From contig CANRGA010000001.1 in assembly GCA_947630055.1 (NCBI GenBank), positions 10,195 to 74,194 of the forward strand: a DNA stretch of 64,000 nt, written 5' to 3'. The notes under the pieces are model-generated. The model saw only the letters and a program-made list of their open reading frames with translations. It was not told the DNA's origin and made no database searches. A program made the translations under genes and the position numbers. Positions 9,144 to 26,588 of this stretch are shown here, piece after piece. This DNA comes from an uncultured Bacilli bacterium (GTDB taxonomy: Bacteria > Bacillota_I > Bacilli_A > RF39 > UBA660). The stretch's first letter is position 1, and each line of letters begins with the position of its first letter.

Positions 9144-10049
9144 TTGCGAACATTACCAGAATTAATAATTATGATAGGACTTGCAATATTTGTTATCATA
9201 TATCGTAATAATCAAAATGGTAAGTCTTATAAAGAAGTTTTGAAAAAAGCTGAAGACATATACGACAAATATGCACCGTATTCTTTTAAAGTTGTAAGAG
9301 AAAAAAGTAAGGAATTAGGTCAAGAATATACTACAAAACAATATGTAATGCAAATAGTAATAATGGGTGGATTTGCTGCTTTAATTGGTTATTTCTATTT
9401 TTATAGTATTATTTGGGCTGCAGTATATGCAGTTGCAACAGTAGCATTTATTCCTTATTTAGCTTATTTACGTTGTCAAAGAGTATATAGTGAATTTATA
9501 TTTGAACAAATTCAAACATATACTACTAACGTTATTATGGAATTTAATACTACTCAAAGCTTTGTAAAAAGTTTAGAGGGTGTTAGAGATTCTGGTATAA
9601 TAGAAGAACCTGTACTTTCTGATATAAAAAAAATGATAGATTTATCTTACAAGAATGGTACAATTGATGAATCTATTGAATATTTCAATCAAAAGTATCC
9701 ATTTTATATGGTTAAAAATATGCATCAATTATTTTTACAAATAACCAAAGAAGGTGCAAAAGATGCGGGAGAATCATTAGAAAACATGTCAATGGATATC
9801 GATGCCCTAGTTGAAGGTGTTTATCGTGATCAAATGGATAGAAAAAATTTCCATAAAAGATTTATAACTTTTGCTGTAGTATTATTTTCTTTAGTTGTAG
9901 TAGTAGAATTTATGTTAGGTAAAGATAACTATATAGAACTTTTAGATATATGGTATGTTCAGTTAATATTACATGCTATTGTTTTAATAAATGTATATTT
10001 CTTGATAACAGGAGAGAAATATTATAATGAAGATGTGGGGGCTGAATAA
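9144..10049 (+). CDS. TadB-like (T2SS-F family) pilus platform membrane protein
   Basis: TM segments at the N- and C-termini flank a soluble helical domain. Position directly after the ATPase. TTG start after GGGAGGTG. Confidence 0.5.
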   Translation: MRTLPELIIMIGLAIFVIIYRNNQNGKSYKEVLKKAEDIYDKYAPYSFKVVREKSKELGQEYTTKQYVMQIVIMGGFAALIGYFYFYSIIWAAVYAVATVAFIPYLAYLRCQRVYSEFIFEQIQTYTTNVIMEFNTTQSFVKSLEGVRDSGIIEEPVLSDIKKMIDLSYKNGTIDESIEYFNQKYPFYMVKNMHQLFLQITKEGAKDAGESLENMSMDIDALVEGVYRDQMDRKNFHKRFITFAVVLFSLVVVVEFMLGKDNYIELLDIWYVQLILHAIVLINVYFLITGEKYYNEDVGAE

Positions 10050-10837
10050 TGCAAGTAGAAATAATTATTATTGGTATTCTAATCTTTGTTGTAATGACTT
10101 ATAATGGTCAAGTTAGTATTAAAGATTTAATTAGTGATAACTTTTATTTATTTAGAAAGTTAAAAGAAGACGATTGGGATTTTTATGTTAGTGCAAAATA
10201 TGGAGATAGTGTTTCATCTGATGCAATTTTTATGAAGAGAATTCGAAATGGTTTAATGGTAATTGTAATTAGTTTATTTTTCTTCATAAGACAACTTGAT
10301 GCTCTTTATATATTAATATCTTTTGTTTTAGGTTTCTTAGTATTTAAAATGGACTATATGAATATTAAATCTTATTATAAAACTCATATGTTTAAAATAG
10401 ATAGTATGTTACCTCACTATTTAAAAAGTATTGAAATATTAATTCAACACTATACAGTTCCAGTTGCTATTGGTAAATCAATAATTGATGCACCTGATAT
10501 ATTTAAAGATGGATTACAAGAAATGATTAATGAAATAAATTCAGGTGATGACTCAATTAACCCTTATATGAATTTTGCTAAAAAATATCCGGTAAGAGAT
10601 TCAATGCGTATGATGCGTCTTTTATATCGTTTAAGCTTAGGAAGTCAAGATCGTAAACAAGAACAAATGTTGATGTTTTCAAGAACAATATCTAATTTAC
10701 AACAAAAAGCTAGAGAGACGAAATATAAAAATAGACTTGATAAGATGGAAGGCAAAACAATGAATATGTTAATGTCAACTGGTTTTGGAGTAATGATCTT
10801 ATTAGTCCTAGCCGTATTACAAATGATGGATTTATAA
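10049..10837 (+). CDS. TadC-like (T2SS-F family) pilus platform membrane protein
   Basis: Same architecture as the preceding gene. TAATG stop/start overlap with the preceding gene. Confidence 0.5.
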   Translation: MQVEIIIIGILIFVVMTYNGQVSIKDLISDNFYLFRKLKEDDWDFYVSAKYGDSVSSDAIFMKRIRNGLMVIVISLFFFIRQLDALYILISFVLGFLVFKMDYMNIKSYYKTHMFKIDSMLPHYLKSIEILIQHYTVPVAIGKSIIDAPDIFKDGLQEMINEINSGDDSINPYMNFAKKYPVRDSMRMMRLLYRLSLGSQDRKQEQMLMFSRTISNLQQKARETKYKNRLDKMEGKTMNMLMSTGFGVMILLVLAVLQMMDL

Positions 10838-10930: not shown

Positions 10931-10959
10931 TTGCTATTTTGTATTATTTTGGTTATAAT
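10931..10959 (+). promoter_or_regulatory. Promoter dedicated to the pilin genes
   Basis: TTGCTA, 17-nt spacer, TATAAT, followed by the strong RBS AAAGGAGG. Confidence 0.55.
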
Positions 10960-10990
10960 ATTTATAGATAATAAAGGAGGAATGTAATTT

Positions 10991-11269
10991 ATGAAAGAAG
11001 CAACAGGTGAATTAAATATGACAGTTGTAACAGTTGTAGCAATTGCAGCATTAGTAGCTTTCTTTTATTTAGTAATATGGCCAACTATTAAAACAGGTAT
11101 GGCATTAAACTCTGCTTGTAGTACATATGCATCAACTGGTGGTACAGTTACTTTAGATGATGGTGGTACTATTGTATGTACAAAGAAAACTGCAACAACA
11201 ACGGCAACATGTACTTACAATCCATCTGCAACCGAAGGTGGAAAACCACAAACTAAAAACTGTGAATAA
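10991..11269 (+). CDS. Small pilin-like protein (candidate major pilin 1)
   Basis: MKEATG|ELNMTVVTVVAIAALVAFFYLVIW: short charged leader ending in Gly, then a hydrophobic helix. Small Cys-containing globular tail. Confidence 0.55.
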   Translation: MKEATGELNMTVVTVVAIAALVAFFYLVIWPTIKTGMALNSACSTYASTGGTVTLDDGGTIVCTKKTATTTATCTYNPSATEGGKPQTKNCE

Positions 11270-11285
11270 TAGTGAGTAGTAATAT

Positions 11286-11552
11286 ATGAAAGAGACAACA
11301 GGTGAATTAAACGCTACTGTAGCAGTTATGTTAGCTATTGGTGTTTTAATAGCTTTTTTTTACTATACTTTGTGGCCACTTATTAAAAATAATTTCGATA
11401 AAAATTCTCAATGTAGTAAAGCTATATGTGAAAAATGCGATTTAAATGGTGATGGAAAAGCAGATGTTGGATGCGAAACAGTAACTTGTTATCCAAAAGG
11501 TGAAGAACATCAACCTGGTGTAAATGACTTTCAATGTGTCTATAAAGGTTAA
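11286..11552 (+). CDS. Small pilin-like protein (candidate major pilin 2, paralog)
   Basis: MKETTG|ELNATVAVMLAIGVLIAFFYYTLW; Cys-rich tail (six Cys). Confidence 0.55.
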   Translation: MKETTGELNATVAVMLAIGVLIAFFYYTLWPLIKNNFDKNSQCSKAICEKCDLNGDGKADVGCETVTCYPKGEEHQPGVNDFQCVYKG

Positions 11553-11566
11553 GGAAGTGGAATAAA

Positions 11567-12079
11567 ATGCGGGAAGCAATTGGAGGAATATCCATATTTC
11601 AAATAGTTATATTTTTTATATTGTTATTTACAGGGGTTATGTGCTTAACTATTAATCACTCTAAAGCTTTTGGCGTTAAAGATGAAATAATAACAATAAT
11701 AGAAAATGAACCATTAGGAAGTACTTCTACTTCTTCTTTTGGTTTGAGTGAAAGTACAATGGATAAAATTGCTGAGCATTTAAAAGATGCTGGATATAGA
11801 ATTACTGGTAATTGTCCGAATGGATATCAAGGATATAATCGGGAAGGAAATCCCACTAATAATGATGCATCATTTTGTATAAAAGCTAATAAGGTAGAAG
11901 ATAAATTTTATAAAGATGCTAGAGAAAAATGTACTGGCAATAAATGTGTTGTTACAACTGGTGATTTTCCAAATATGGTATACTACGATATAGTATTATT
12001 TTTCCAATTAGACATTCCATTTGTTAAAGATTTATTTGAATTTAATGTAATGGGTTCTACTAAGACTATATTTGGATAG
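11567..12079 (+). CDS. TadE/pseudopilin-like minor pilin candidate
   Basis: MREAIG|GISIFQIVIFFILLFTGVM leader plus helix; ~140-aa Cys-containing ectodomain. Confidence 0.45.
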   Translation: MREAIGGISIFQIVIFFILLFTGVMCLTINHSKAFGVKDEIITIIENEPLGSTSTSSFGLSESTMDKIAEHLKDAGYRITGNCPNGYQGYNREGNPTNNDASFCIKANKVEDKFYKDAREKCTGNKCVVTTGDFPNMVYYDIVLFFQLDIPFVKDLFEFNVMGSTKTIFG

Positions 12080-12089
12080 GTGATATAAA

Positions 12090-12551
12090 ATGCGCGAATC
12101 AATAGGAACTCAAACAATTTTTAAAGCTGTCTTGATTTTCACTTTTTTATTTTCTGGCTTTATTGCAGTTGCAATAACATATAATAAAGCCTTTAAATTA
12201 AAAAATGAGACTATTAATATTTTAGAAAAATATGAAGGCGTTAATAAACAATCTTTAACTATCATTAATAACTATTTGAATCAAAATGGTTATTCTACTA
12301 AAAATCCTTGTGATACCACTGAATATGGAGTAGCAGATTTAAAAAATCCAACATATGAAAAAAGTAATCCTAATAGTAGGTATTATTATTGTCTTTCTTC
12401 TGAGGTAAAAAATAATCAAATATTTTATGGTATTAAATTATTTTCAAGATTTAATTTACCTATAATTGGAGATTTATTCTATTTTAGAGTTACTGGAGAG
12501 ACAAAAGGTATTAAATTATATGATAATAAACAAAGATTAGAAAATAATTAG
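12090..12551 (+). CDS. TadE/pseudopilin-like minor pilin candidate (paralog)
   Basis: MRESIG|TQTIFKAVLIFTFLFSGFI. The C-terminal motif (FNLPIIGDLFYFRVTGETK) parallels the preceding ORF (LDIPFVKDLFEFNVMGSTK). Confidence 0.45.
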   Translation: MRESIGTQTIFKAVLIFTFLFSGFIAVAITYNKAFKLKNETINILEKYEGVNKQSLTIINNYLNQNGYSTKNPCDTTEYGVADLKNPTYEKSNPNSRYYYCLSSEVKNNQIFYGIKLFSRFNLPIIGDLFYFRVTGETKGIKLYDNKQRLENN

Positions 12552-12563
12552 GGAGATGTGAAT

Positions 12564-13544
12564 ATGAATGTAATAGTATCAAATAAATATCAATCATTAC
12601 TAGGAACACTAGAAATAGATGTAATTAAAACAATTAATGGTGAATTTACGGTTCAAGATTTGGTAAATCAATTTAATAATTTTTTCTTTAATAAAATGAT
12701 AATTGATATAACTGCTATTAAAAATTATGAAAATATTAATATAATGCGGGAATTATCATTGAATTTTGAAATGGATAAAATAATTATCTTGTTAGATGAT
12801 TCACCAAGTGTAAATTCAGCAAATTATTTATCTCAATTGGTATCTTTTGGTATTTATAATTTTACAAGAAGTGTAGATGCTATTCCATTTTTAATAGATA
12901 ATCCAAATTCTTATAAAGATGTAGCGGCATATCAAAATTTAAATCCAGATACTAATTTGGACAGTAAAAAAGTTAAAGAAATTGCTCCTGTTAAAATGGA
13001 GCAAAGAGTAATTGGCTTTAAGAATGTTACTGAACATGCAGGAGCTACTACTTTAATATATATGTTAAAAAAGCATTTACAAAGTGAATATAAAGTTAAA
13101 GCAATTGAAGTAAATGCAACCGATTTTGAAAATTTTAATGATAAATCACTTGAAAGTGCTGATTTTATGAATATTTCAATAAAATTAGCAAATAATAGTG
13201 ATGCCGATGTTATTTTAGTGGATTTAAATGATGGTCCAGAAACAATTTGTACCGAAATTATTTATCTAATTGAACCAGGTATTTTAAAATTAAATAAATT
13301 AATTAGGAATGATCGAAAAATATTTGAAAAATTAAAGAATAAAAAAATCGTTTTAAATAGAAGTGTTTTAAACGATAAAGATGTTCATGATTTTGAATAT
13401 GAAAGTGGTAGTAAAATATTCTTTAATATTCCAAGTTTAGATGAAAAATTAGATAATAATAAAAAAATAATTGAATTTTTAATTGCTTTAGGATTTTCTA
13501 GATTAGATGTAGAAAATAATAATAAAAAATTTGGTATTTTATAA
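12564..13544 (+). CDS. TadZ/CpaE-like protein (receiver-like N-domain + ParA/MinD-like domain with degenerate P-loop)
   Basis: The position where KGGxGKT(T) is expected reads FKNVTEHAGATTL. Overall ParA-like layout and last-gene position in the tad-like operon. ATG at 12564 is preferred (RBS GGGAG). Confidence 0.4.
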   Translation: MNVIVSNKYQSLLGTLEIDVIKTINGEFTVQDLVNQFNNFFFNKMIIDITAIKNYENINIMRELSLNFEMDKIIILLDDSPSVNSANYLSQLVSFGIYNFTRSVDAIPFLIDNPNSYKDVAAYQNLNPDTNLDSKKVKEIAPVKMEQRVIGFKNVTEHAGATTLIYMLKKHLQSEYKVKAIEVNATDFENFNDKSLESADFMNISIKLANNSDADVILVDLNDGPETICTEIIYLIEPGILKLNKLIRNDRKIFEKLKNKKIVLNRSVLNDKDVHDFEYESGSKIFFNIPSLDEKLDNNKKIIEFLIALGFSRLDVENNNKKFGIL

Positions 13545-13735: not shown

Positions 13736-13800
13736 TACTGGATAATTTTGCTATATTGTGGTATTATATGAAACAATTGATTTTGAAGGGGTGTTTTGTT

Positions 13801-16800
13801 ATGAAATACGCAAAATATAAGTATATATTTATGTTATTTTTAGTGATCATTTTTTTACCATTTAAAGTTATGGCCAAAAATATTAATTTAGATATTGATA
13901 AATATGATTTAACTATTGGTGATGAAATAACAGTAAGTGTTAGTTTACCAGATGAAATAAAAGCTTATGCAGTTATGGCAACTTTTACTTATGATGAAAA
14001 TGTTTTTACTAAAATAGATATTGATGATTTTTCTATTTTAAATAAAAATTTAAATATTTCTTATAATGATAATACTAAAAAATTTGGTTTAATAAACGAA
14101 ACAGGTAAATTAGATAATGAATTATTTCAAGTTCATTTAAAAGTAAAGGAAAATGCTAATGTTGGCGATACTAATATAGCTTTAACAAATATAGTAGTGT
14201 CTGATGGAACAAAGAAAGAAGAATATAATAAGACTATTAAAACTATTTTAGTTACAAGAGATGCTAAGCCTGGTGAAGAAATACCTATTAATAAATCTAA
14301 TAAAGTAGAAGAAAGTAAAGAAATTGAAACTAAAGTATTTACATCTAAGCCGTTTATGATTACTTTAGGTATAAGTGCTATTGTAATTTTAGGATTAGTG
14401 ATTTATATTACCTTATTTAAAAAAGATAAAAAGACTTTAAAAAATATTCTTGTTGGTTGTGCAACTATTTTAACCATTTCTTTTGTAGTTATATATATAT
14501 TTAATATTAATAAAAGAGATGTTAATAATGATGGAGTTAAAGATTACAATGATGCAAAAGAAATACTTAAATATCTTTTAGATATTACAGGTACTGAAGA
14601 AATTGATAATAATAAAAATACTTCTAATAAAAAACCAAGTATTAACCCAAATAATAAATATGATGTTAATAATGATGGTAAAATTGATATAAATGATGTT
14701 GGTAATAATACGGAAAATGTTACTGAAAATACAAAAGTGATTTTAAAAGAAAAGAACGATAATAAAGATTTTTATGTCAAAAAAGGTGATATTACTTTAA
14801 AATTTACTGCAGAAATTACACCTAAAAATGTAACAATAACTAAAGTAAAAATTAATAATAAATATTATGATGTTATCAATAATAATGGCGAATATTCTGT
14901 TACTATAGAGTCTAATAAAGCAGGTAAATACGAATTTGCTATTACTAGTGTTATTTTATCTAATGGCAAAGAAATAAATGTTAAACTTAAATTTGTAAGA
15001 GAAGTTTTAAAAGTTACTCCTTATGTTAATAAATTTAATTTAAATGATGAAAAAGGTTCTTTAAGTTTTGAACTAGTAGATCCAGAAGATGCTTTTATTA
15101 GTGGTGAAGTTACTGTTTATGATGGTGAAAAAGTAATTGTCAAAGAAAATGTTAAAAGTACAACTAAAATTAATGATATTCCTATTGATGAAGATAAAAT
15201 TTATCGTTTAGAAGTAATGGGAGAATATGATTTAGATAGCAATAAAAATGATGATAATAATCATTTTACTAATCAAACTATGTTTAACCATTCCTTTATG
15301 ATAGGGGGAGATTATAACTTCACTTTAACTGATGTAGGAATTACAGATGCGATTAAAAAGGGTGAAAAGCCAGTTATAAGTTTTAAAAGTACAAATACTA
15401 AAGGAGTGACTGTTGAAAATGCTTCTTTAACTATTGGAAATAAAACTAATAATTATGTCATTAGTAAAATAGATGGTGATAATTATGAAGTTATTTTAGA
15501 AGATGCTGATACATCTGTAGGTAAACATAAAGTAAATTTAGATAGTGTTAGATTAAAATCTTTAAAGACGTTTAATAATAAAAAAGACTATGATGCTAAT
15601 ACACTAACTTATACTGTGTTAAAAGATTCGCCAAAAGTAACTAGTTTGAATGTAGAAGAAGATTCCGAAAATAAAAGTATTATTGCTAAATTTAGTATAA
15701 ATGATGAAAGTAGTGCTATTAGTAGTTTAAAAGTTGTTTTAGTAGATTCAACTGGAGCAGTTATTGCATCACAAATTTTAACAAGAGAAGAATACTTAGA
15801 AAAAGGTGAAGTATCACTATCTTATGATGGTAGTACAGATGGTAATTATAAAGTTAAAATTTTAGCTGATTATGCCCTAAGTGATCAATATAACTATACT
15901 GATAAACCAATTGGGGAAGAAGCAATTACAGTTAATACTGGTGTATATATTGAAGCTATTGAATATGTTGAAACAAAACAAAATAATCGTGTTATTGATA
16001 GTGGTAAATTTGCTAGTAAAGGCCAAAAAATGTATCGAATGAACTTTATCGTTCATACCAAAGGAATAAGATCATATTCACGTCTTTCATCTATTACGAT
16101 TAATGGTTTAAATTATATTGCTAATGGTGGAGCATCTGCCATAGAAAATGCTGAAGGTGAATATAGATATACCTCAACTGTTGCTATTACTGTGCCAAAA
16201 GAAGCAGGTATTATGACAATTACTGCTAATCGTGTTCAATTAGAAGTTAATAGTTATAATTACAAGGTTAATCAATTTTATCATGTTCCAGATGTATCTA
16301 AAGAATATGAAGTATTAAAAGATATTCCAAGTATTGCTAATTTAAAAATACAAAAAGAAGATTATGAAGCAAAAGAAGTTACTTTTAATTTTGATGTTAT
16401 CGACAAAGAAGATTCATTTATAAGTGGTAAATTAGAATTAAATGGTAAGAGTGAAGAGATAAATAAAGGTAATAATACAGTTACTTTTACTGGTATTGAA
16501 ACTGATAAAGTTCATGATTTGATTTTTAAAGCTGATTATAAATTAAGTACTGGTGAAATTGAAGATCCAATTAATCAAACAGAAAAAAGTAATGCGGAAA
16601 TATATAAAGTTAAATATGGTTTATATAAAGAAGATACTTATAATGATATTAAGATAAGTGAAATTACTCCAGTTAGTGAAAAGAACAATAAATATTTTGA
16701 AAAAAACGAAGATATTAAATTAAATCTTATTATTGTAGGCATTCCCGAGTATTTAAATGTTTATCCAGAAAGAGTTATTATTAATGATAAAGAATATGAT

Positions 16801-19800
16801 TCAAAAGCTTTAATGACTTGTCATGAAGTAACTTTAAAGGGTTATACTTCATCTGGTGAAAAAGAACTTAAAGTTAGTGCCATCATTTTAAATAATGGTA
16901 AAGTTATAACTTTAGATAAAGAAGTAACTATTGAAGTATTAAAAGATATACCAAAAATAACTGATTATAAATATTCTATTAATGATAATAGTATTAAAAT
17001 TACTTTAGCTAATAAAGATAGTGATTCATCTTTAGATGGTGATTTACAAGTTAAAGTTACTGATGATACAGGGAAAGAACTTTATAATAGTAAATATCAA
17101 GAGACAATTGAGTTTAAAAAGAATAAAGATGCTTTAAGATATTATATTTCTGTTATAGGTAGTTATGATAGAGATATTGATAAACAAGAAGATAGTGAAA
17201 ACTATAATAAAGATATTAAATTATTAGATGAAACTATTTCTCTAGATAAAAATAATATTGAATTAAAAGATATTACTTATATAACCTTATATAAAGAAGA
17301 AAATGATAAAATATTAGAGATTAGAGAAATAACTAAAGAAGAATTAGAACAAAATATTGAAAAATATTTTGTCGAAGTTAATATGGAAAATATGCCTTCT
17401 GTTTATGCTAAACTTAAAAAAGTTACTATTGAAGATAATCATTTAATGCTAATTTTAGATTATGAATATGTAACTAAAGAAGAAAGTAAATCTAAAGAAA
17501 TCAAAGTTGATTATGGGGCTATAATTAATGGTAAAGCAAAAAATGAAACTAATCCATTAAATGAATTTAATATCTTAAAAGAAAGAATTAAAAATAATGA
17601 ACATATCATTTTAACTCATGATTATGATTTAAAAGATATTGAAGTTACTACAAGTTATTATTTTGAAAACTTTAGTGGTTCAATTGATGGTAATGGTCAT
17701 AAAATAACTAATTTAAGTAAACAATTATTTAATGAACTTAGTAATGCGGAAATTAAAAATTTAATAGTAGAAAATGCTAATATAAGTGGTGCTGTTCGTG
17801 GTATTTTAGCCGATAAAGGTACAGATGTAGTAATTAATAATGTTCATTTATATAATGGTAATATTAAAGCTAATCTTGTTACTAATGGAACTGGTATTAT
17901 GTTTGGTGAAACAAGAAATAGTATAGAAATATCAAATTCATCAATTGTAAATAGTTCAGTTAGTGGTGGCAAAAGAACTGGTGGCTTTATTGGTCAAGCT
18001 TATAATAAAACAACGATTACTAATAGTTATATCAATGATAGTAGTGTAACTGGTAATAATGACGCTATTGGTGGCATTATTGGCGAAGTAAGTAGTGCTA
18101 ATAATGTTTCTATGACTAATTGTTATAGTAAAGTTACTATGGATGGTGGTGCTGGTAATGCTAAAGCTGGTATTTTAGGCTATACTAATAGTAGCGGTGC
18201 AACTAAATTAATTAATAGTTTAAGTATGTCTCAAGGAAATAGTGGTACGAGAGTATATGGTAATGGTATCTCTGCTACTAATGTCTATGAGTTAAAAGAA
18301 TCTACTATGAGATCGCAAGCTGGTGGCCAAATTAAAGAAATAACTGGTAATGATATTAATAAAGAATTCTTTATTAATTCATTAAATTGGGATGAAGAAG
18401 TGTGGAATTTAGATAATGTATCAGCTGATGTACCTCCTATTTTAAAAGGCGAAAAATTTGAGCCTGTGAAAAGCCCAATAGAAGCTGAAGATGGTTATGA
18501 TCCAAATAAAAGAATACTTTATAATAACTTAATGAAATTAATGCCTTTCTATGATAGTGAAAAAATAGTTAGAACTGGTATGCATATTACTGATAATAAT
18601 TTACTTAATAAAGAAATTCAACATATTGTGCCAATTGATAATAAAGGAAGTATTGTTACATATTTAACAAGTGATAATTTAAAGAAAATAAGTAAGATAA
18701 AAGTAGTATATAAAACGAAAGAAAAAGTTACTTATGATGTAAAATTTGATAATACTTATGATATGGTAGCAAGTTATCGTATACCTGATTTAAATATCGA
18801 TTATACTTATAACCATTATATTATTGATGCTAACTCTCAAGTAGTAAATAATATAACTAATTATTTAAAAGATTTAAGTTATACAAATAATTTAGATACT
18901 TTAACTGCTACTAAAGATAGTAGAATATTAAGAGATTTCTATAATGATGTTACTAGTAAAGAATTAAAAGAATTTACTTTAAAATATTTATCTAATAGTA
19001 ATTATACTAATACCACTAACAATGATAGTATTAATAGTCATTTGGAAAGTGAAATTAAAAAAGATAAAAAAATTGAAAAAGTATTATATATGTATAATTA
19101 CTTTAGAAGATTCTATGATGTTGAAATAGATGGTATGAAATTATATGATTTTATGCTATTTAACATGAATGGTTTTGATGAATCATTAACAAGCCAAATG
19201 ATAGCCCGTATTTATTTACAAGATGGTAATAACTTTAACACTGGTTCAACTGGTACTAAATATCGTGATTTACTAGGGGGTTATACTAAACTTAATACTA
19301 TTGCCAAATTCATCGAATATATGGTAACTGAATTTAGTAATGATAATATGAATGATTGGGTAAGGAAAGAATTTGCAGGTTACTTAGTAGAAATTCCAGT
19401 TAAAGGTCATGAAAAAGACATTCAATATACTTTATGGGATCACTTTAGTAATGAAGATGCTGTTTATAATAATCCACATAGAGCATATGATATGATGTTA
19501 CCAATTTTAACATTGCCAAAGAATGCAGCTTATATAATTTCTACGCCAGTTCAATTTATCATCGGGGCGCAAAGAAGTTATATTGAAGATCCAGAAGATC
19601 CTACTTCTCAAAGTATTTTCCAAAGAAGAGTTAAAAGCTACGCTAAGAGAATGGAAACTTATTTTGATACAGCTTATAAAATTTTAGGCGATGCAAAATA
19701 CTTTAATGATATTCATACTTTCCAACTTGATAAAAGATTTGCTTATGATGAAAATGGCGCAATGGTATATCAACAAGCCTATGTTACAGAGGAGCCATTC

Positions 19801-21174
19801 CATAAGAACTTTAATGAAGTAACTGGTCGTTGGCAAACAAGTGATGGTAATGCTGCTGTTGCTTGGGGAGATCGTATTGACTGGAGTGCAGAAGGTTTAA
19901 TGGATGGTAATATTGATCCAGATTTAGTTAGTGTTTTAAATAAACAAATTCAAGAATATACTTATCATACCTTTACGCATGAAACAGCCCATAATATTGA
20001 TGCTAGACTATTCTTAAAAAATAATGGTAGAAGATTTGATGCTGGAGGAGAAGATTATGCTGATAGTAATCTAATGCAATCTTTTGGACCAAATGATATA
20101 GTTATGAATTTATCAACTTATCGTAATGGTGAAAAAATTGCTTCAAATTATACTCCAGATCGAATTAACTCACCAGAAAAAATTCAAAGTTACTATGATA
20201 AAGTATTCCAAACTATCTATGTAATGGATTATATTGAAGCAGAGGCTTTCTTACAACTTCCTAAAGAAGTTCAAGCAAATTTAGCAGTTCAAGTATCTTA
20301 TCCAAATGAAAATTTACAATTTGAAACTTTAGAAGATGGTAAAACTTTCACTGGACCAACTTATAAAGAAGATCCTTATGCTATTTTTAGAGCCCGTCAA
20401 ACATCAAGATTTACTCAATTAAGTGAAATACCAGATGTATTTAATCAAATGAAACTTACATCAATTAATGATTTAATTGATAATCATATTATGATTTATC
20501 CGGGTATTTATAAAGTAGGATCTAGAGGGTCTAACTCTTATGGCGGTGAAGGCATTGGTCATGTTCACTGGTATCAACCATGGAATCCAGAAGGAAGACC
20601 TGATTCATACGCAATTAAATGGATTGCTTATGAAATGCTTGGTTTAAAAGGATATGATGAAGGTTATATTGAGTATTATAGTAATATAAATTCAACACCA
20701 AGAGAAATTTATAAAAACTTATCTAAGCCTAAAGAAGGTAAATCAACCGTTAATTATAAAACTGATTCTATGGCATTAAGTAGAATAACTGAAGGTAGAT
20801 TTGATGATTTTGATAAGTATAAGAAATATCGTTTTGCAGAAACTAAAGCAAAATTAGATAAACTTAATGCCAAAGTTAATGTAAAACAATATGTTCAAAA
20901 ATTATATGATGCTTTACTTGAAGATAATGAATATTCTAAAACAAGATTAGAATCATTACTTCAAGCATATAAAACTGATGAAAAAGGTTGCTTAGGTAGT
21001 TATTGGTGTGCCAGAGGAATATCTGGTGAAGTTAGAGGTTTCTTAAAAAGTACTGCTGTAAGACAAGAAATATATTATACTTTAAAAGATTTAACAAATG
21101 ATTTTGAAGGTGAAATATTTGAAAAAACTACTCAACAAAATGTCAGCGATTTAACTGTTAATAAAGGTGAATAA
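13801..21174 (+). CDS. Giant surface Zn-metalloprotease, ZmpA/B/C (peptidase M26)-like, with cohesin-like and dockerin-like modules
   Basis: Signal peptide MKYAKYKYIFMLFLVIIFLPFKVMA, with RBS GAAGGGG 9 nt upstream. Cohesin-like N-domain and two TM helices. EF-hand dockerin-like DVNNDGVKDYND / DVNNDGKIDIND. Multiple Ig-like repeats. GLUG-type motifs (GGFIGQAYN.., IGGIIGEVS). HExxH site HTFTHETAHNID. Confidence 0.75.
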   Translation: MKYAKYKYIFMLFLVIIFLPFKVMAKNINLDIDKYDLTIGDEITVSVSLPDEIKAYAVMATFTYDENVFTKIDIDDFSILNKNLNISYNDNTKKFGLINETGKLDNELFQVHLKVKENANVGDTNIALTNIVVSDGTKKEEYNKTIKTILVTRDAKPGEEIPINKSNKVEESKEIETKVFTSKPFMITLGISAIVILGLVIYITLFKKDKKTLKNILVGCATILTISFVVIYIFNINKRDVNNDGVKDYNDAKEILKYLLDITGTEEIDNNKNTSNKKPSINPNNKYDVNNDGKIDINDVGNNTENVTENTKVILKEKNDNKDFYVKKGDITLKFTAEITPKNVTITKVKINNKYYDVINNNGEYSVTIESNKAGKYEFAITSVILSNGKEINVKLKFVREVLKVTPYVNKFNLNDEKGSLSFELVDPEDAFISGEVTVYDGEKVIVKENVKSTTKINDIPIDEDKIYRLEVMGEYDLDSNKNDDNNHFTNQTMFNHSFMIGGDYNFTLTDVGITDAIKKGEKPVISFKSTNTKGVTVENASLTIGNKTNNYVISKIDGDNYEVILEDADTSVGKHKVNLDSVRLKSLKTFNNKKDYDANTLTYTVLKDSPKVTSLNVEEDSENKSIIAKFSINDESSAISSLKVVLVDSTGAVIASQILTREEYLEKGEVSLSYDGSTDGNYKVKILADYALSDQYNYTDKPIGEEAITVNTGVYIEAIEYVETKQNNRVIDSGKFASKGQKMYRMNFIVHTKGIRSYSRLSSITINGLNYIANGGASAIENAEGEYRYTSTVAITVPKEAGIMTITANRVQLEVNSYNYKVNQFYHVPDVSKEYEVLKDIPSIANLKIQKEDYEAKEVTFNFDVIDKEDSFISGKLELNGKSEEINKGNNTVTFTGIETDKVHDLIFKADYKLSTGEIEDPINQTEKSNAEIYKVKYGLYKEDTYNDIKISEITPVSEKNNKYFEKNEDIKLNLIIVGIPEYLNVYPERVIINDKEYDSKALMTCHEVTLKGYTSSGEKELKVSAIILNNGKVITLDKEVTIEVLKDIPKITDYKYSINDNSIKITLANKDSDSSLDGDLQVKVTDDTGKELYNSKYQETIEFKKNKDALRYYISVIGSYDRDIDKQEDSENYNKDIKLLDETISLDKNNIELKDITYITLYKEENDKILEIREITKEELEQNIEKYFVEVNMENMPSVYAKLKKVTIEDNHLMLILDYEYVTKEESKSKEIKVDYGAIINGKAKNETNPLNEFNILKERIKNNEHIILTHDYDLKDIEVTTSYYFENFSGSIDGNGHKITNLSKQLFNELSNAEIKNLIVENANISGAVRGILADKGTDVVINNVHLYNGNIKANLVTNGTGIMFGETRNSIEISNSSIVNSSVSGGKRTGGFIGQAYNKTTITNSYINDSSVTGNNDAIGGIIGEVSSANNVSMTNCYSKVTMDGGAGNAKAGILGYTNSSGATKLINSLSMSQGNSGTRVYGNGISATNVYELKESTMRSQAGGQIKEITGNDINKEFFINSLNWDEEVWNLDNVSADVPPILKGEKFEPVKSPIEAEDGYDPNKRILYNNLMKLMPFYDSEKIVRTGMHITDNNLLNKEIQHIVPIDNKGSIVTYLTSDNLKKISKIKVVYKTKEKVTYDVKFDNTYDMVASYRIPDLNIDYTYNHYIIDANSQVVNNITNYLKDLSYTNNLDTLTATKDSRILRDFYNDVTSKELKEFTLKYLSNSNYTNTTNNDSINSHLESEIKKDKKIEKVLYMYNYFRRFYDVEIDGMKLYDFMLFNMNGFDESLTSQMIARIYLQDGNNFNTGSTGTKYRDLLGGYTKLNTIAKFIEYMVTEFSNDNMNDWVRKEFAGYLVEIPVKGHEKDIQYTLWDHFSNEDAVYNNPHRAYDMMLPILTLPKNAAYIISTPVQFIIGAQRSYIEDPEDPTSQSIFQRRVKSYAKRMETYFDTAYKILGDAKYFNDIHTFQLDKRFAYDENGAMVYQQAYVTEEPFHKNFNEVTGRWQTSDGNAAVAWGDRIDWSAEGLMDGNIDPDLVSVLNKQIQEYTYHTFTHETAHNIDARLFLKNNGRRFDAGGEDYADSNLMQSFGPNDIVMNLSTYRNGEKIASNYTPDRINSPEKIQSYYDKVFQTIYVMDYIEAEAFLQLPKEVQANLAVQVSYPNENLQFETLEDGKTFTGPTYKEDPYAIFRARQTSRFTQLSEIPDVFNQMKLTSINDLIDNHIMIYPGIYKVGSRGSNSYGGEGIGHVHWYQPWNPEGRPDSYAIKWIAYEMLGLKGYDEGYIEYYSNINSTPREIYKNLSKPKEGKSTVNYKTDSMALSRITEGRFDDFDKYKKYRFAETKAKLDKLNAKVNVKQYVQKLYDALLEDNEYSKTRLESLLQAYKTDEKGCLGSYWCARGISGEVRGFLKSTAVRQEIYYTLKDLTNDFEGEIFEKTTQQNVSDLTVNKGE

Positions 21175-22397: not shown

Positions 22398-22763
22398 ATG
22401 TTATTAGGAGCTACATTTTGTACTGATACTGCAAATATATGGCATTTAGTTGGTATGGTAGTTTATATTTTAAAAATTGTTATTCCACTTGTATTAATCA
22501 TTTTAGGTATGCTTGATTTAGGGAAAGCTGTTGTTTCAAGTGATGAAAAAGCTATTAATAAAGCAGTTGGTACATTAATAAAAAGATTTATTGCAGCAGT
22601 TGTAGTATTCTTTGTTCCTACTATAATTAATGGAATTTTTGGAGTAATTGGTGTAATTGGTGGAAGTTCAAAAGATGATTACCAAGTATGCGTTAGATGT
22701 GTTACTCAAACTTGTGAAGCAGAAGCAGAAGCAGCAAGACAAAGCATCGGCTTTACTCAATAA
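22398..22763 (+). CDS. VirB2/TrbC-like two-TM protein (core-only paralog P1)
   Basis: Contains ..IVIPLVLIILGMLDLGKAVVSSDEKAINKAVGTLIKRFIAAVVVFFVP.., a module shared with the C-termini of the ORFs at 22873, 24153 and 25714. C-terminal Cys cluster. Confidence 0.45.
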   Translation: MLLGATFCTDTANIWHLVGMVVYILKIVIPLVLIILGMLDLGKAVVSSDEKAINKAVGTLIKRFIAAVVVFFVPTIINGIFGVIGVIGGSSKDDYQVCVRCVTQTCEAEAEAARQSIGFTQ

Positions 22764-22847
22764 TTTTTAGTAATTAATGTGTATAGAAAATAGTGTCAAC
22801 AAAGTTAACACTATTTTTTTGTTTTAATTTAATATTTACAATAACCA

Positions 22848-22856
22848 TGTTATAAT
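22848..22856 (+). promoter_or_regulatory. Extended -10 element (TGtTATAAT) upstream of P2
   Basis: The aataaccatgNtataatttag block is duplicated at 24121-24140. Confidence 0.4.
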
Positions 22857-22872
22857 TTAGGTGGGTGAGTCT

Positions 22873-23970
22873 ATGAAAAAAAATAAAGCAATAGCTATAT
22901 TTTGTTTGTTATTTATGATTTTAATAGTTTTTGCAATATGCTCATCTGTATATTTAAGTAAAAGAGAAAATAATAAAGATATAATCATTTTAGCAGCAAA
23001 TAAAAATTATGGTTTAACTAAGGAACAAGTAGAACAAGAATTAAATAAAATGAAATCTACTCCAACTTATGATGAATTAGTATCATTAGCTAAAAGAAAA
23101 TATGGAATGAGTGAAGATGTTTTTCAAGTGGTTTTTGGTTGGGCAATTGGTGAAGGCTATGATAGTCATGATCATTATCTAGGTTACTTATGCGATAATG
23201 TTGGAATTAATCATTATATGGGGTATGGAAAAACTACTGCTAGTTCCTTAGCTGCATCAATAGCCGGAAGAGATAGTAGTGGCTATTATTCAACAAGTAG
23301 GATGCAAGGAAGATCTATTTCTGCTAAAAATAATCCTGGAAGCTATGTAGCAGCTTATAAAGGAATGTATTTAGCTTTGAAATATCCTGAAGAGAATGCA
23401 CATGATTGTGATGGTGTATCAAACTATAGTGGATATGGAGGTCAAAAAATTTATTCAGCAGTAGTTGGAAGATATACAATAAATGTATGGTCTGTTTGGT
23501 ATGATGGCATAAAGCATTGGAACTCTGATGGTAAATATTCTGATAGTAAAGGTGGAATAAAAGGTGCCAAAAAAGAAGAAGTGCTTGTAACATTAAAAGA
23601 CAAAGATCCACGTATAGATTATGCTGATTTATGTAAATCAAAAGGTTTTAGAATGGGTTCTAAAATAGCAGGTATAGTTATATTGGTAGTAAAATGGTTA
23701 ACGCCAATGATATTAATAATACTTGGGATGACAGATTTTACTAAAGCAATGGTTTCAAATGAACAAGATTCATTAGGAAAGGCGACAAAAACATTTATAA
23801 TAAGAATGATGATTGCAATAATGCTACCATTTATTCCAGGACTTATGTATTATTTAGTTGATTATTTTATTGGCGATTTAAAGGATGAAGCCGGGGAACT
23901 TGTATCATGTACTGAATGTCTTAAAGATCCTTTTAGTTGTGTAGTTGAATTGTATGACAATAATAATTAA
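22873..23970 (+). CDS. VirB2-like module fused to a ~270-aa secreted N-terminal domain (P2)
   Basis: Signal anchor MKKNKAIAIFCLLFMILIVF. C-terminus KIAGIVILVVKWLTPMILIILGMTDFTKAMVSNEQDSLGKATKTFIIRMMIAIMLPFIPG...SCTECLKDPFSC. Confidence 0.5.
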   Translation: MKKNKAIAIFCLLFMILIVFAICSSVYLSKRENNKDIIILAANKNYGLTKEQVEQELNKMKSTPTYDELVSLAKRKYGMSEDVFQVVFGWAIGEGYDSHDHYLGYLCDNVGINHYMGYGKTTASSLAASIAGRDSSGYYSTSRMQGRSISAKNNPGSYVAAYKGMYLALKYPEENAHDCDGVSNYSGYGGQKIYSAVVGRYTINVWSVWYDGIKHWNSDGKYSDSKGGIKGAKKEEVLVTLKDKDPRIDYADLCKSKGFRMGSKIAGIVILVVKWLTPMILIILGMTDFTKAMVSNEQDSLGKATKTFIIRMMIAIMLPFIPGLMYYLVDYFIGDLKDEAGELVSCTECLKDPFSCVVELYDNNN

Positions 23971-23989
23971 AAAAGTTTGAGGTGATAAA

Positions 23990-24070
23990 ATGGAAAAAAA
24001 TAAAGCGATAGCTATATTTTGTTTATTATTTATTATATTAACTATTTTTGCAACAATTTCTATTATATAA
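23990..24070 (+). pseudogene. 26-codon remnant duplicating the signal-anchor of P2
   Basis: MEKNKAIAIFCLLFIILTIFATISII* compared with MKKNKAIAIFCLLFMILIVFAICSS; has its own GAGGTG RBS. Confidence 0.6.
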
Positions 24071-24127
24071 TAAGTGTTAAATGCCTTTACAGTTTTATTT
24101 AATTTGTTTTATTATTTAAAATAACCA

Positions 24128-24136
24128 TGATATAAT
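24128..24136 (+). promoter_or_regulatory. Extended -10 element (TGaTATAAT) upstream of P3
   Basis: Duplicate of the block upstream of P2. Confidence 0.4.
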
Positions 24137-24152
24137 TTAGTTAGGTGTTAAT

Positions 24153-24875
24153 ATGAAAAAAAATTGGAAATTATTAGTATTTTGTTTGATTATTATGTTT
24201 TTTATTAATTGTAATATTGCTATTGCGGATTCATCTTGTGATAAATATGCCACACATAATGAAGAAATATGTAATTATGAATCATCAACTTCAGGAGAAG
24301 CAGTATGTAGATGTCTTTATGATTTGAATAAAACTAATGAAACTACTTGTGATAGAGGCTATACAAATAATGTATTAAACATATGTGAGGCTTCATTTCC
24401 AACAACATATGATTTTTCAAAAACGCCGGTAGAAAATAATCCATCTAATACAAATAATACTGAGAGCGATGATACTATTAAAGGATCTAGTGATAGTGCT
24501 GGAAATCCTACAATAGGCGATAGTGGTCCAAGATTGGAATATAATAATTTATGTGAATCAGAAGGATTTAAAACAGGATCTAAAATAGCAGGTATAGTTA
24601 TATTGGTAGCAAAATGGTTAACACCACTTGCATTAATGATATTAGGAATGATAGATTTTTTCAAGGCAGTTATATCGAGTAATGAAAAAGCACTAAGTGA
24701 CGCTACGACTACTTTTATAAAAAGAATAGTAATAGCAATTATTGTTCCATTTGTACCTGGTTTGTTATTTTATTTAGTTGATTTTTTTATCGGTGACGAA
24801 ATTGCAGATACTAAAGTTGAATTTGGCTCATGTACGGAATGCTTAAAGGATCCTTTAAATTGTACAATTAAATAA
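24153..24875 (+). CDS. VirB2-like module fused to a ~140-aa Cys-rich secreted N-terminal domain (P3)
   Basis: Signal peptide. C-terminus KIAGIVILVAKWLTPLALMILGMIDFFKAVISSNEKALSDATTTFIKRIVIAIIVPFVPG...SCTECLKDPLNC. Confidence 0.5.
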   Translation: MKKNWKLLVFCLIIMFFINCNIAIADSSCDKYATHNEEICNYESSTSGEAVCRCLYDLNKTNETTCDRGYTNNVLNICEASFPTTYDFSKTPVENNPSNTNNTESDDTIKGSSDSAGNPTIGDSGPRLEYNNLCESEGFKTGSKIAGIVILVAKWLTPLALMILGMIDFFKAVISSNEKALSDATTTFIKRIVIAIIVPFVPGLLFYLVDFFIGDEIADTKVEFGSCTECLKDPLNCTIK

Positions 24876-24890
24876 TAATAGAGTTGTTTA

Positions 24891-25619: not shown

Positions 25620-25713
25620 TAATATATAAATTATGTAATAAAAATTAGTAGTATTTTCAAAAAATATATGCTAAAATAAAAATATAAATAATAAAGATGT
25701 TAGGAAGATTTCT

Positions 25714-26574: not shown

Positions 26575-26588
26575 GGTGAGAGGTTTAA

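What the first reader, a model, noticed from the sequence alone, without database searches (positions are those of the whole stretch)
10991..12551. Non-canonical, strictly conserved 6-residue pilin leader M-[KR]-E-[ATS]-x-G shared by five ORFs
The leaders are MKEATG|ELN.., MKETTG|ELN.., MREAIG|GIS.., MRESIG|TQT.. and, at 6824, MKESYWG|YWL... Each is followed by a ~20-residue hydrophobic helix. The leader is shorter than Flp leaders. It lacks the G/xxxxEY Flp signature and the G/FxxxE type IVa signature; Glu is at +1 in the two small pilins and absent from the others. The two small pilins have their own TTGCTA-N17-TATAAT promoter and an AAAGGAGG RBS, consistent with major-subunit expression. 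Their tails contain 4-6 Cys. This looks like a distinct class-III-signal variant.
Basis: seen in the sequence. Interest (0 to 1): 0.6.

Follow-up and report, generated by a model that had tools for sequence, protein, structure and literature searches.

The report
New pilin family beside DNA-transfer machine
Four neighbouring genes in an uncultured gut bacterium encode a previously undescribed family of pilus-subunit-like proteins with an almost invariant start (MKEATG…), made next to a Tad-type pilus motor and a Gram-positive DNA-transfer system, a kind of system that the papers I read say builds no pili.

Summary
Four adjacent ORFs (10991, 11286, 11567, 12090) start M-[KR]-E-[ATS]-x-G followed by a hydrophobic helix. 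A fifth (6824, Pfam DUF5411) starts MKESYWG. The hexapeptide occurs nowhere else in the six-frame translation of the 64 kb window.

- **Conservation:** the motif holds across hundreds of homologues. Residues 1-9 of the small pilin are 99% identical while the Cys-containing tail is 35% identical.
- **Context:** the genes sit in a gene order conserved across about 80 gut Bacilli genomes: adhesin, DUF5411, CpaB-like, CpaF-like ATPase, TadB/TadC-like pair, two pilins, two larger paralogues, then a Gram-positive type IV secretion system.
- **Known signatures:** none fits (G|FxxxE, Flp G|xxxxEY, archaeal G|QxSxE).
- **Open point:** cleavage is unproven. No A24 prepilin peptidase lies in the window or in 80 related loci. 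Some related genomes carry canonical pilins, which implies a peptidase acting in trans.

Verdict: a new variant of class-III-signal pilins, with processing unresolved. DUF5411 should not be counted as a pilin.

The parts
2267..2980 (+). Conserved first gene of the module (signal peptide plus C-terminal TM). No family assigned.
   Evidence: Syntenic in related loci. No Pfam hit. Sequence.
2983..6807 (+). 1274-aa Cys-rich protein with a signal-peptide-like N-terminus, in the 'adhesin' slot that precedes DUF5411 in related and distant systems.
   Evidence: The same slot holds a SpaA-like, Ig-like or thioester-domain protein in plasmid systems.
6824..7231 (+). DUF5411 single-pass membrane protein, N-terminus MKESYWG. 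It is probably an assembly component, not a demonstrated pilin.
   Evidence: Pfam PF17424 5.7e-53. N-terminus conserved in 44 homologues. No profile similarity to the 170-aa family.
7243..8010 (+). CpaB/RcpC-like protein
   Evidence: Pfam RcpC 3.2e-06, just under its cut-off (27.5 vs 28.8 bits). TIGR03177 CpaB 8e-10, below its cut-off.
8034..9125 (+). CpaF/TadA-like secretion ATPase
   Evidence: Pfam T2SSE 2.5e-29. Best solved relatives: CpaF 1.8e-18, then archaeal GspE2 and FlaI, then VirB11.
9144..10049 (+). TadB-like polytopic platform protein
   Evidence: BLASTP 9e-11 to a Priestia plasmid protein annotated 'type II secretion system F family'. One of the 27 aligned family members, a set that includes that Priestia protein, hits Pfam T2SSF at 3.4e-05. 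Paralogous to the next gene.
10049..10837 (+). TadC-like polytopic platform protein
   Evidence: hhalign against the TadB-like family: probability 92%, E 5.4e-07.
10931..10959 (+). Promoter-like TTGCTA-N17-TATAAT upstream of the pilin genes
   Evidence: A matching site lies upstream of the first pilin gene in 35 of 41 related loci, nearly all at -55 to -68.
10973..10980 (+). AAAGGAGG ribosome-binding site
   Evidence: Read from the sequence. AAGGAG or AGGAGG is found at -11 to -19 in most related loci.
10991..11269 (+). Pil1: 92-aa pilin, MKEATG|ELNMTV…, four invariant Cys. Likely the major subunit.
11286..11552 (+). Pil2: 88-aa paralogous pilin, MKETTG|ELNATV…, six Cys
   Evidence: 36% identical to Pil1 and shares its invariant residues. 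Syntenic in related loci.
11567..12079 (+). 170-aa minor-pilin-like protein, MREAIG|GIS…
12090..12551 (+). 153-aa paralogue of the previous gene, MRESIG|TQT…
   Evidence: hhalign probability 100%, E 6.6e-39 against the 170-aa family. Position 6 is G58/S16/A2/T1.
12558..13544 (+). 328-aa conserved protein, possibly a degenerate TadZ/CpaE-like (ParA-like) protein. This is inferred only.
   Evidence: Syntenic in 72 loci. No Pfam or PDB sequence hit for the window protein. One aligned family member hits AAA_31 and one hits CbiA.
13756..21174 (+). 2472-aa surface protein with an M26 (IgA1-protease-like) peptidase region
   Evidence: Pfam Peptidase_M26_C 1.1e-31.
22398..38636 (+). Gram-positive-type type IV secretion system: VirB2-like paralogues, VirB6-like, PrgI/TcpE-like, VirB4, M23/lysozyme hydrolase, VirD4.
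   Evidence: The same genes follow the pilin block in related loci.

Best explanation
The four ORFs at 10991-12551 are the filament subunits of a Tad-like type IV filament machine. Two are small pilins and two are larger minor-pilin-like proteins. The machine is encoded just upstream: a CpaB-like protein, a CpaF-like ATPase and a TadB/TadC-like platform pair. The whole unit is a conserved companion of a Gram-positive type IV secretion system in uncultured gut Bacilli.

The shared M-[KR]-E-[AS]-x-[G>S] hexapeptide is the short cytoplasmic pre-sequence of a class-III-type signal. The proposed sequence of events is:
1. The protein inserts N-in, C-out through its hydrophobic helix.
2. The hexapeptide is probably removed after the small residue at position 6 by an A24 prepilin peptidase encoded elsewhere in the genome. 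The small pilins would then start with Glu.
3. The ATPase and platform polymerise the subunits through their invariant helices, with the hypervariable disulfide-bonded domain facing outward.
4. The filament most likely serves cell-cell contact or adhesin display for the adjacent secretion system.

Shown: the motif, its conservation, the gene context and the predicted pilin fold. Inferred: topology, cleavage, polymerisation and function.
For: **Motif.** It is confined to these start codons in the window. It is conserved across 72-77 homologues of each of the four families, and position 6 is only G, S, A or T. MKEATGELN is the N-terminus of 98 of 145 cluster representatives at 50% identity.

**Pilin-like evolution.** Residues 1-9 are 99% identical, residues 1-42 are 79% and residues 43-92 are 35%. 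Four Cys are invariant. Some loci carry tandem pilin copies with identical N-terminal halves and different tails.

**Machine.** The ATPase is closest to CpaF. The platform pair is paralogous and linked to T2SSF. The CpaB-like hits are weak.

**Synteny.** Gene order is conserved in about 80 genomes. The ATPase lies upstream in 47 of 61 informative loci, and the two larger paralogues follow in 75 of 75.

**Expression.** A conserved promoter-like site and ribosome-binding site lie in front of the first pilin gene.

**Peptidase in trans.** Canonical G|FTL[IV]E pilin genes lie in the flanks of five related loci. In two of them they sit directly upstream of the MKEATG pilin gene. Those hosts must therefore have an A24 peptidase.
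Against: - No A24 peptidase is encoded in the 64 kb window or within about 10 kb of the pilins in 80 related loci. The window itself also has no canonical pilin.
- The pre-sequence has net charge 0 and an uncharged residue at -2, unlike the basic leaders of known prepilins. The small pilins carry Glu at +1, not +5.
- All nine N-terminal residues and the leader length are essentially invariant. That is more constraint than a disposable leader normally shows.
- Small proteins at the equivalent position in pLS20-like plasmids have G or D before the helix.
- In 14 of 61 loci no ATPase lies within 7-10 kb upstream.
Confidence: 0.5

Rival explanations
1. These are pilins of the same Tad-like machine, but the N-terminus is not cleaved. 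MKEATGELN would stay on the subunit (at most losing the formyl group or Met) and act as a fixed docking or packing element, with K2, E3 and E7 neutralising charges in the filament core.
For: - No cis-encoded peptidase in the window or in 80 related loci.
- Residues 1-9 are 99% identical and the leader length never varies.
- The leader has no net positive charge.
- Distant pLS20-like systems have D at the equivalent of -1.
Against: - As far as I know, every characterised type IV filament subunit is processed.
- Position 6 stays G, S or A across three paralogous families even where its neighbours vary. That pattern fits a cleavage site.
- Canonical pilins in some of the same genomes imply that a peptidase is available.
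Confidence: 0.28
2. The pre-sequence is removed by a protease that is not an A24 enzyme. The candidate is the Rce1-like CPBP intramembrane protease encoded divergently at the left edge of the module in many related loci.
For: - A CPBP gene lies immediately upstream of the first module gene in 11 of 14 loci with enough upstream DNA.
- Pfam Rce1-like at about 1e-15 to 1e-17.
- A CPBP gene is also annotated upstream of the distant Enterococcus pZB18 module.
- I found no paper linking CPBP proteases to pilins.
Against: - It is absent from the window's own strain, where chromosomal genes flank the module.
- It is absent near the Priestia, Listeria, Bacillus and Paenibacillus modules.
- It is divergently transcribed.
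- CPBP genes are common immunity-type cargo (my knowledge).
Confidence: 0.07
3. The proteins are not filament subunits. They would be signal-anchored accessory components of the type IV secretion system or cell-envelope proteins, with the shared N-terminus reflecting common membrane-insertion or translation-initiation constraints.
For: - The pilin block always keeps its two larger paralogues and is followed by type IV secretion genes in at least 52 loci, whereas the ATPase is missing upstream in 14 of 61.
- Pil1 has no sequence similarity to any solved pilin, and Foldseek found nothing significant.
- DUF5411 shares a similar N-terminus without any pilin evidence.
Against: - The conserved-helix, hypervariable-tail pattern and tandem variant copies are typical of pilins.
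- The genes sit directly after the platform genes behind a dedicated strong-looking promoter and ribosome-binding site.
- The window's other N-terminally hydrophobic proteins mostly start with a basic MKK/MKN-type N-terminus.
Confidence: 0.15

Closest known systems
Tad/Flp pili (CpaF/TadA, TadB/TadC, CpaB/RcpC, Flp pilin, TadE/TadF, TadV peptidase)
   Same: - A CpaF-like ATPase is the best solved match.
- The two platform proteins are single-domain paralogues.
- A CpaB-like gene sits upstream.
- Pilin and minor-pilin genes lie downstream.
- There is one ATPase only.
   Different: - The subunits are not Flp-type: no G|xxxxEY, no Pfam Flp hit, and a β-sheet domain rather than a bare helical hairpin.
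- There is no TadV peptidase in cis.
- There is no TadE Pfam hit.
- The module is embedded in a type IV secretion gene cluster.
Type IVa / ComG pilins and T2SS pseudopilins (N_methyl class III signal, G|F-x-x-x-E)
   Same: - A leader of about 6 residues ending in Gly.
- A hydrophobic α1-N helix.
- A predicted α/β pilin fold, closest to GspI/EpsI-size pseudopilins.
- A disulfide-capable C-terminal domain.
   Different: - No Phe/Met at +1 and no Glu at +5.
- Glu is at +1 in the small pilins.
- The leader is not basic.
- No Pfam N_methyl hit.
- The assembly ATPase and platform are Tad-type, not PilB/PilC or ComGA/ComGB.
pLS20-family conjugation operon, genes 34-41 (Tie adhesin, p36, 'putative VirB11' p37, p38, p39, p40, p41; PMC8557374), and related modules on Listeria, Enterococcus, Priestia and Paenibacillus plasmids
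   Same: - Same order: adhesin, small N-terminal-TM protein (annotated DUF5411 in Priestia), CpaF/VirB11-family ATPase, two polytopic proteins, then small N-terminal-TM proteins, next to VirB4, VirD4 and VirB6.
- The ATPase is 30-33% identical.
   Different: - No homologue of Pil1 or the 170-aa protein exists in 72,556 plasmid records.
- The plasmid small proteins start MEQNSG, MEPNTD or MLDQNTD.
- The published reading is 'VirB11', and these systems are said to make no pili (PMC8557374, PMC11730352).
DUF5411-CpaF-PilC operon of Roseburia, Ruminococcus and Eubacterium, flagged as an uncharacterised secretion-related system (PMC9523054)
   Same: It shares DUF5411, a CpaF-family ATPase, a PilC/GspF-like membrane protein and an adhesin-like protein. 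No recognisable pilin or peptidase was reported.
   Different: It is found in a different class (Clostridia). No link to a type IV secretion system was described. Pilin N-termini were not analysed there, and I did not examine those loci.
Archaeal class III signal / DUF361 EppA-dependent pilins (G|QxSxExxxL)
   Same: A short leader and a polar residue at +1. The Tad lineage is thought to derive from archaeal Epd-like pili (PMC6668835).
   Different: No Q at +1, no S at +3 and no E at +5. No Pfam Class_IIIsignal hit.

Membership tests
Type IV pilin / pseudopilin (N_methyl class III signal) | Short leader ending in Gly at -1, directly before a hydrophobic helix of about 20 residues | tested here: met
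   MKEATG, MKETTG, MREAIG and MRESIG are each followed by a hydrophobic stretch. G is at position 6 in 58-71 of 71-77 homologues per family.
Type IV pilin / pseudopilin (N_methyl class III signal) | Hydrophobic residue (F/M/L) at +1 and Glu at +5; match to the Pfam N_methyl motif | tested here: not met
   The +1 residue is E, E, G and T; the +5 residue is T, T, F and F. No N_methyl hit at E<=1.
Type IV pilin / pseudopilin (N_methyl class III signal) | α/β pilin fold: a long N-terminal helix packed on an antiparallel sheet | tested here: met
Type IV pilin / pseudopilin (N_methyl class III signal) | Processing by an A24 prepilin peptidase | not testable with these tools
   None is encoded in the window or in 80 related loci. 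Canonical pilins in five related loci imply a peptidase elsewhere in those genomes. Cleavage itself needs protein chemistry.
Flp/Fap pilin (Pfam PF04964) | G|XXXXEY processing motif and a Pfam Flp_Fap match | tested here: not met
   There is no EY after the Gly and no Flp hit.
Flp/Fap pilin (Pfam PF04964) | Small, essentially all-helical mature subunit | tested here: not met
   The predicted model has a four-stranded sheet and four conserved Cys.
Tad/Cpa assembly machinery | CpaF/TadA-type ATPase | tested here: met
   T2SSE 2.5e-29. CpaF is the best solved relative at 1.8e-18, ahead of FlaI and VirB11. The protein scores below every NCBIfam equivalog cut-off, so it is a divergent member.
Tad/Cpa assembly machinery | Two paralogous TadB/TadC (T2SSF-domain) platform proteins | tested here: inconclusive
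   The pair is paralogous (hhalign 92%, 5.4e-07). The window proteins have no direct T2SSF hit. The link runs through a Priestia homologue annotated as T2SS F family (BLASTP 9e-11) and one T2SSF hit (3.4e-05) among the 27 aligned family members.
Tad/Cpa assembly machinery | CpaB/RcpC | tested here: inconclusive
   RcpC scores 27.5 bits against a cut-off of 28.8. TIGR03177 gives 8e-10 but 38 bits against a cut-off of 71.
Tad/Cpa assembly machinery | Dedicated TadV/CpaA peptidase in the locus | tested here: not met
   No Peptidase_A24 hit and no GxGD-type polytopic ORF in the window or in 80 loci.
Archaeal class III signal (DUF361 / EppA substrates) | Q at +1 with the QxSxExxxL motif | tested here: not met
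   The sequence after G6 is ELNMTVVTV. No PF04021 hit.
pLS20-family conjugation module (genes 34-41) | Order adhesin, small TM protein, CpaF/VirB11-family ATPase, two polytopic proteins, small TM proteins, within a Gram-positive type IV secretion operon | tested here: met
   Window order. Plasmid loci. pLS20 gene table in PMC8557374.
pLS20-family conjugation module (genes 34-41) | Sequence homology of the small subunit proteins | tested here: not met
   tblastn of Pil1 and of the 170-aa protein against all PLSDB plasmids gave no match.

The most novel reading that the evidence does not exclude
Monoderm type IV secretion systems may carry their own type IV filament, a Gram-positive counterpart of a conjugative or mating pilus. 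The systems concerned include the pLS20 family, whose ATPase has been read as 'VirB11'. In the gut-Bacilli lineage the filament would be built from a pilin class whose N-terminus is matured without a dedicated A24 peptidase. It would either stay uncleaved or be cut by another enzyme such as the neighbouring CPBP protease.
Probability: 0.25. Interest if true: 0.85.

Novelty: new variant of a known kind. Interest (0 to 1): 0.62.

Why it matters
**A large unnamed family.** These are pilin-fold proteins in uncultured gut Bacilli. There are 626 clusters at 50% identity and at least 435 species-level genomes. None has a Pfam, NCBIfam or informative source name.

**Missed by signature-based pilin finding.** The N-terminus lacks the G|FxxxE, Flp and archaeal class III signatures that, to my knowledge, motif-based pilin finders rely on, so such subunits are likely to be missed.

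**A testable challenge to a common statement.** The genes are physically tied to a Gram-positive type IV secretion system. The same gene architecture occurs in pLS20-type plasmids of Bacillus, Listeria and Enterococcus, where the ATPase is called VirB11 and the systems are said to lack pili. If the module builds a filament, it offers a concrete way to test how monoderm donors reach or hold recipients or host surfaces.

**A question about filament packing.** Glu at +1 instead of +5 raises how the buried N-terminal charge is neutralised.

Tried and rejected
- **Nucleotide similarity.** megablast of the locus against plasmids and phages gave nothing.
- **Sequence profiles against PDB chains.** Profiles of Pil1, the TadB-like family, DUF5411 and the 328-aa family gave no meaningful hits.
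- **One superfamily for the families compared?** hhalign shows only the two larger proteins are paralogues. Pil1 against the 170-aa family aligns over the first 16 residues only (probability 2%). DUF5411 against the 170-aa family gave probability 10%. The Pil1-DUF5411 pair was not compared.
- **Candidate peptidases.** A 283-aa six-TM ORF next to canonical pilins in L006 and L012 reads as a ZIP-type metal transporter from its sequence (HNIPEG motif, my reading; not scanned against Pfam), not a peptidase. The TMEM164-family ORF (24891-25619) is present in few loci.
- **'Integrative conjugative element' label.** I could not support it. The window has no relaxase or integrase hit and no compositional break, and chromosomal genes lie directly upstream in the same strain.
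- **Literature.** Searches for a described Gram-positive Tad-like conjugative pilus or a CPBP-pilin link found none.
- **Flaw in one alignment.** Alignment A6 contains one Pil2 sequence added by mistake, so I did not use it for any comparison with pilins.
Full report
**1. The observation**

All five ORFs exist at the stated coordinates with the stated N-termini: 10991 MKEATGELN, 11286 MKETTGELN, 11567 MREAIGGIS, 12090 MRESIGTQT and 6824 MKESYWGYW. Each is followed by a strongly hydrophobic stretch.

The pattern is not a by-product of the AT-rich genome (26.5% G+C). Of 65 ORFs of at least 80 aa, only these five start M[KR]E. M[KR]E[ATS]xG occurs four times in the whole six-frame translation, each time at one of these start codons. 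The window's other N-terminally hydrophobic proteins mostly start with a basic MKK/MKN-type N-terminus.

The Cys counts (4 and 6), the TTGCTA-N17-TATAAT site (10931-10959) and AAAGGAGG (10973-10980) are as described. Promoter-like hexamers are no more frequent here than in shuffled sequence. Even so, 35 of the 41 related loci examined have a matching -35/-10 pair upstream of the first pilin gene, nearly all 55-68 nt before its ATG. I therefore accept the promoter.

Two corrections apply. The fifth ORF has seven residues before the helix, not six. The motif is 'strict' only within this window.

**2. What surrounds it**

The genes from 2267 to 13544 form one co-directional block:
- a small conserved membrane protein;
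- a 1274-aa Cys-rich protein with a signal-peptide-like N-terminus;
- DUF5411 (PF17424, 5.7e-53);
- a CpaB/RcpC-like protein, with hits just under the curated thresholds;
- a secretion ATPase (T2SSE 2.5e-29), whose best solved relatives are CpaF (1.8e-18), then archaeal GspE2 and FlaI, then VirB11;
- two polytopic proteins that are paralogues of each other (hhalign 92%, 5.4e-07). One matches a Priestia plasmid protein annotated as T2SS F family at 9e-11, and one member of the aligned family set, which includes that Priestia protein, hits Pfam T2SSF;
- the four motif-bearing ORFs;
- a 328-aa protein with no assignable family.

Next comes a 2472-aa surface protein with an M26 IgA1-protease-like region. 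After it lies a Gram-positive-type type IV secretion system with VirB2-like paralogues, VirB6-like, PrgI/TcpE-like, VirB4, an M23/lysozyme hydrolase and VirD4. Housekeeping genes (secE, nusG, bipA, tyrS, bacA) follow from about 41 kb.

I found no relaxase, integrase or compositional break. In the same strain, chromosomal genes lie directly upstream of the block. Calling the region an integrative conjugative element is therefore not justified by what I saw.

**3. Relatives**

- **Small pilin.** The 92-aa protein has 1829 candidate homologues. The best 120 all start MKEATGELNMTV (four with a TTG start printed as L, one MRE, one MKES), carry no Pfam domain and no informative name. An exhaustive profile search gave 626 clusters at 50% identity, every alignment starting at residue 1. 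MKEATGELN is the N-terminus of 98 of 145 representatives.
- **Genomes.** A genome scan found relatives in at least 435 species-level genomes. Nearly all are uncultured gut 'Bacilli', 'Tenericutes' or Candidatus Coprovivens and Ventrenecus assemblies from rabbit, human, goat and chicken.
- **Synteny.** In the 80 loci fetched, gene order matches the window. The two larger paralogues follow the pilins in 75 of 75 loci. The ATPase with its platform pair lies upstream in 47 of 61 loci that have at least 7 kb of upstream DNA. Type IV secretion genes follow in at least 52 loci. In the other 14 loci no ATPase lies within the 7-10 kb upstream; in the loci I read, housekeeping, glycosylation or other unrelated genes abut the pilin block. 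The tie to the ATPase is therefore strong but not absolute in cis.
- **Motif per family (for a further 118 homologues of the 170-aa protein).** Position 6 is G71/S1, G69/S5, G68/S3 and G58/S16/A2/T1, so it is always a small residue. Position 3 is E with some Q or D. Position 2 is K or R.

**4. Are they pilins?**

- **Sequence.** Profiles find no solved relative.
- **Evolutionary pattern.** Residues 1-9 are 99% identical, residues 1-42 are 79% and residues 43-92 are 35%. Four Cys are invariant. Some loci have tandem copies with identical N-terminal halves and different tails. This is the pattern expected of a pilin.
- **Relations between families.** The 170- and 153-aa proteins are clear paralogues. 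The small pilins and the 170-aa family share only their first 16 residues, and DUF5411 shows no profile similarity to the 170-aa family. I did not compare DUF5411 with the small pilins. I treat DUF5411 as a signal-anchored assembly factor whose similar N-terminus is unexplained.

**5. Is the hexapeptide a cleaved leader?**

For cleavage:
- a 6-residue pre-sequence ending in Gly directly before the helix is the geometry of type IVa and ComG prepilins (my knowledge);
- the residue at that position stays small in all four families while its neighbours drift;
- canonical G|FTL[IV]E pilin genes lie in the flanks of five related loci, and in L006 and L012 they sit directly upstream of the MKEATG pilin gene. 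Those hosts must have an A24 peptidase.

Against cleavage:
- no A24 peptidase or GxGD-type polytopic ORF lies in the window or in any of the 80 loci;
- the window itself has no canonical pilin;
- the pre-sequence is not basic and has Thr or Ile at -2;
- the small pilins have Glu at +1 and Thr at +5;
- all nine N-terminal residues and the leader length are invariant.

A Rce1-like CPBP intramembrane protease is encoded divergently at the left edge of the module in 11 of 14 informative loci, and also next to the distant Enterococcus pZB18 module. It is missing from the window's own strain and from the other plasmid systems.

I rate cleavage by a peptidase acting in trans as the single most likely outcome, but only at about even odds.

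**6. Comparison with known systems**

The machinery works like a Tad system and partly passes its membership test: the ATPase is met, the platform pair and CpaB are inconclusive, and a peptidase in the locus is not met. The subunits fail the Flp, N_methyl and archaeal DUF361 signatures while having the pilin fold.

The same architecture occurs on plasmids of Priestia, Enterococcus, Listeria, Bacillus and Paenibacillus: adhesin, small TM protein (annotated DUF5411 in Priestia), CpaF/VirB11-family ATPase, two polytopic proteins, then small TM proteins, next to VirB4, VirD4 and VirB6. It matches pLS20 genes 34-41, where gene 37 is called a putative VirB11. Gram-positive conjugation is stated there to lack pili (PMC8557374; PMC11730352). 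The window's pilins have no homologue in any of 72,556 plasmid records.

A DUF5411-CpaF-PilC operon in gut Clostridia was flagged as an uncharacterised secretion-related system (PMC9523054). I found no paper describing this pilin family or its leader.

**7. Verdict**

The finding is real and non-random. It marks a large, unnamed family of type-IV-pilin-fold proteins with a non-canonical N-terminal signal, attached to a Tad-like motor and a monoderm type IV secretion system. It is a new variant of a known kind. Whether the hexapeptide is removed, and by what, is the open question, and it can be answered directly by protein chemistry.

Noticed in passing
window 13756-21174: A 2472-aa surface protein with an M26 IgA1-specific metalloendopeptidase C-terminal region (1.1e-31; HETAH motif) and a weak dockerin-like repeat. 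It sits between the pilus-like module and the type IV secretion genes.
   Followed up: partly
window 22398-26574: Four consecutive ORFs (121, 369, 240 and 286 aa) share a C-terminal two-TM domain resembling VirB2-type T4SS pilins. The 121-aa ORF has a weak PF18895 hit; the others were matched by eye. Three of them carry Cys-rich extracellular N-terminal parts. Multiple VirB2-like pilins were recently noted in Patescibacteria type IV secretion systems (PMC12857230).
   Followed up: partly
window 89-1267 (-), 1457-2044 (-), 21354-22313 (+): Three YhcG/DUF1016 PD-(D/E)XK nuclease genes (one truncated) flank or interrupt the module. The identical 392-aa protein also occurs on other contigs; the two places shown have the same chromosomal neighbours (DUF6020, a glycosyltransferase, a two-component system, LytR/LCP) that lie just upstream of the module in the same strain (L088). 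Related genes interrupt other loci (L014, L016, L024, L067), which suggests, but does not show, a mobile or multi-copy gene.
   Followed up: partly
window 1-41000; L088: No relaxase, integrase, tRNA border or G+C shift accompanies the T4SS cluster. In the same strain, chromosomal genes (two-component system, LytR/LCP, glycosyltransferase) lie directly upstream. The cluster may be a fixed chromosomal system rather than an integrative conjugative element.
   Followed up: partly
L016, L024, L027-L029, L031, L036, L059, L063, L071, just upstream of the first pilin gene (after the tadC-like gene where one is present): In about ten related loci, YfhO-family (GT-C) membrane proteins lie just upstream of the pilin genes, in some with a family-2 glycosyltransferase and, in at least L027 and L029, an FAD oxidoreductase. 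This hints at glycosylation of the pilins or of a wall polymer. N9-x-T11 is also invariant in the pilins, but it would lie at the cytoplasmic end of the helix.
   Followed up: partly
L008, L015, L017, L026, L030, L034, L040, L043, L056, L066, L070 (upstream of the first module gene); L001 1650-2096: An Rce1-like CPBP intramembrane protease is encoded divergently at the left edge of the module in 11 of 14 informative loci and is annotated near the Enterococcus pZB18 module. It is absent from the window's own strain.
   Followed up: yes
L006 6184-8256; L012 5251-7319; L033 13271-15232; L059 17869-18951; L067 669-1061: Canonical type IV pilin genes (MK..KGFTL[IV]ELL, Pfam N_methyl) lie in the flanks. 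In L006 and L012 they sit directly upstream of the MKEATG pilin gene, in place of the tad genes.
   Followed up: partly
L006 1382-3861; L027 478-1536; L031 5631-6641: Several flanking ORFs have N-termini such as LLVAVVGATFAYFS and AIGGTATYAWFTSN, which resemble the N-terminal signal region of TasA/camelysin-type secreted proteins (my recollection). Not tested.
   Followed up: no
L001 7020-7172 and 11080-11235; L084 8781-9147; L083 12748-13026: pLS20-like and Enterococcus plasmid modules encode roughly 47-65-aa (up to 92 aa as annotated in Listeria) single-helix proteins (MEQNSGRLFLAMGAV…, MLDQNTDRSWWMIGAV…). They look like Flp-sized subunits with a short acidic N-terminus. They are not annotated as pilins.
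   Followed up: no
window 24891-25619: A TMEM164-family six-TM protein is embedded in the type IV secretion cluster. It is present in only a few related loci.
   Followed up: no
window 59721-60905: An IS605-family OrfB/TnpB (Cas12f-like TNB domain) gene lies among housekeeping genes.
   Followed up: no
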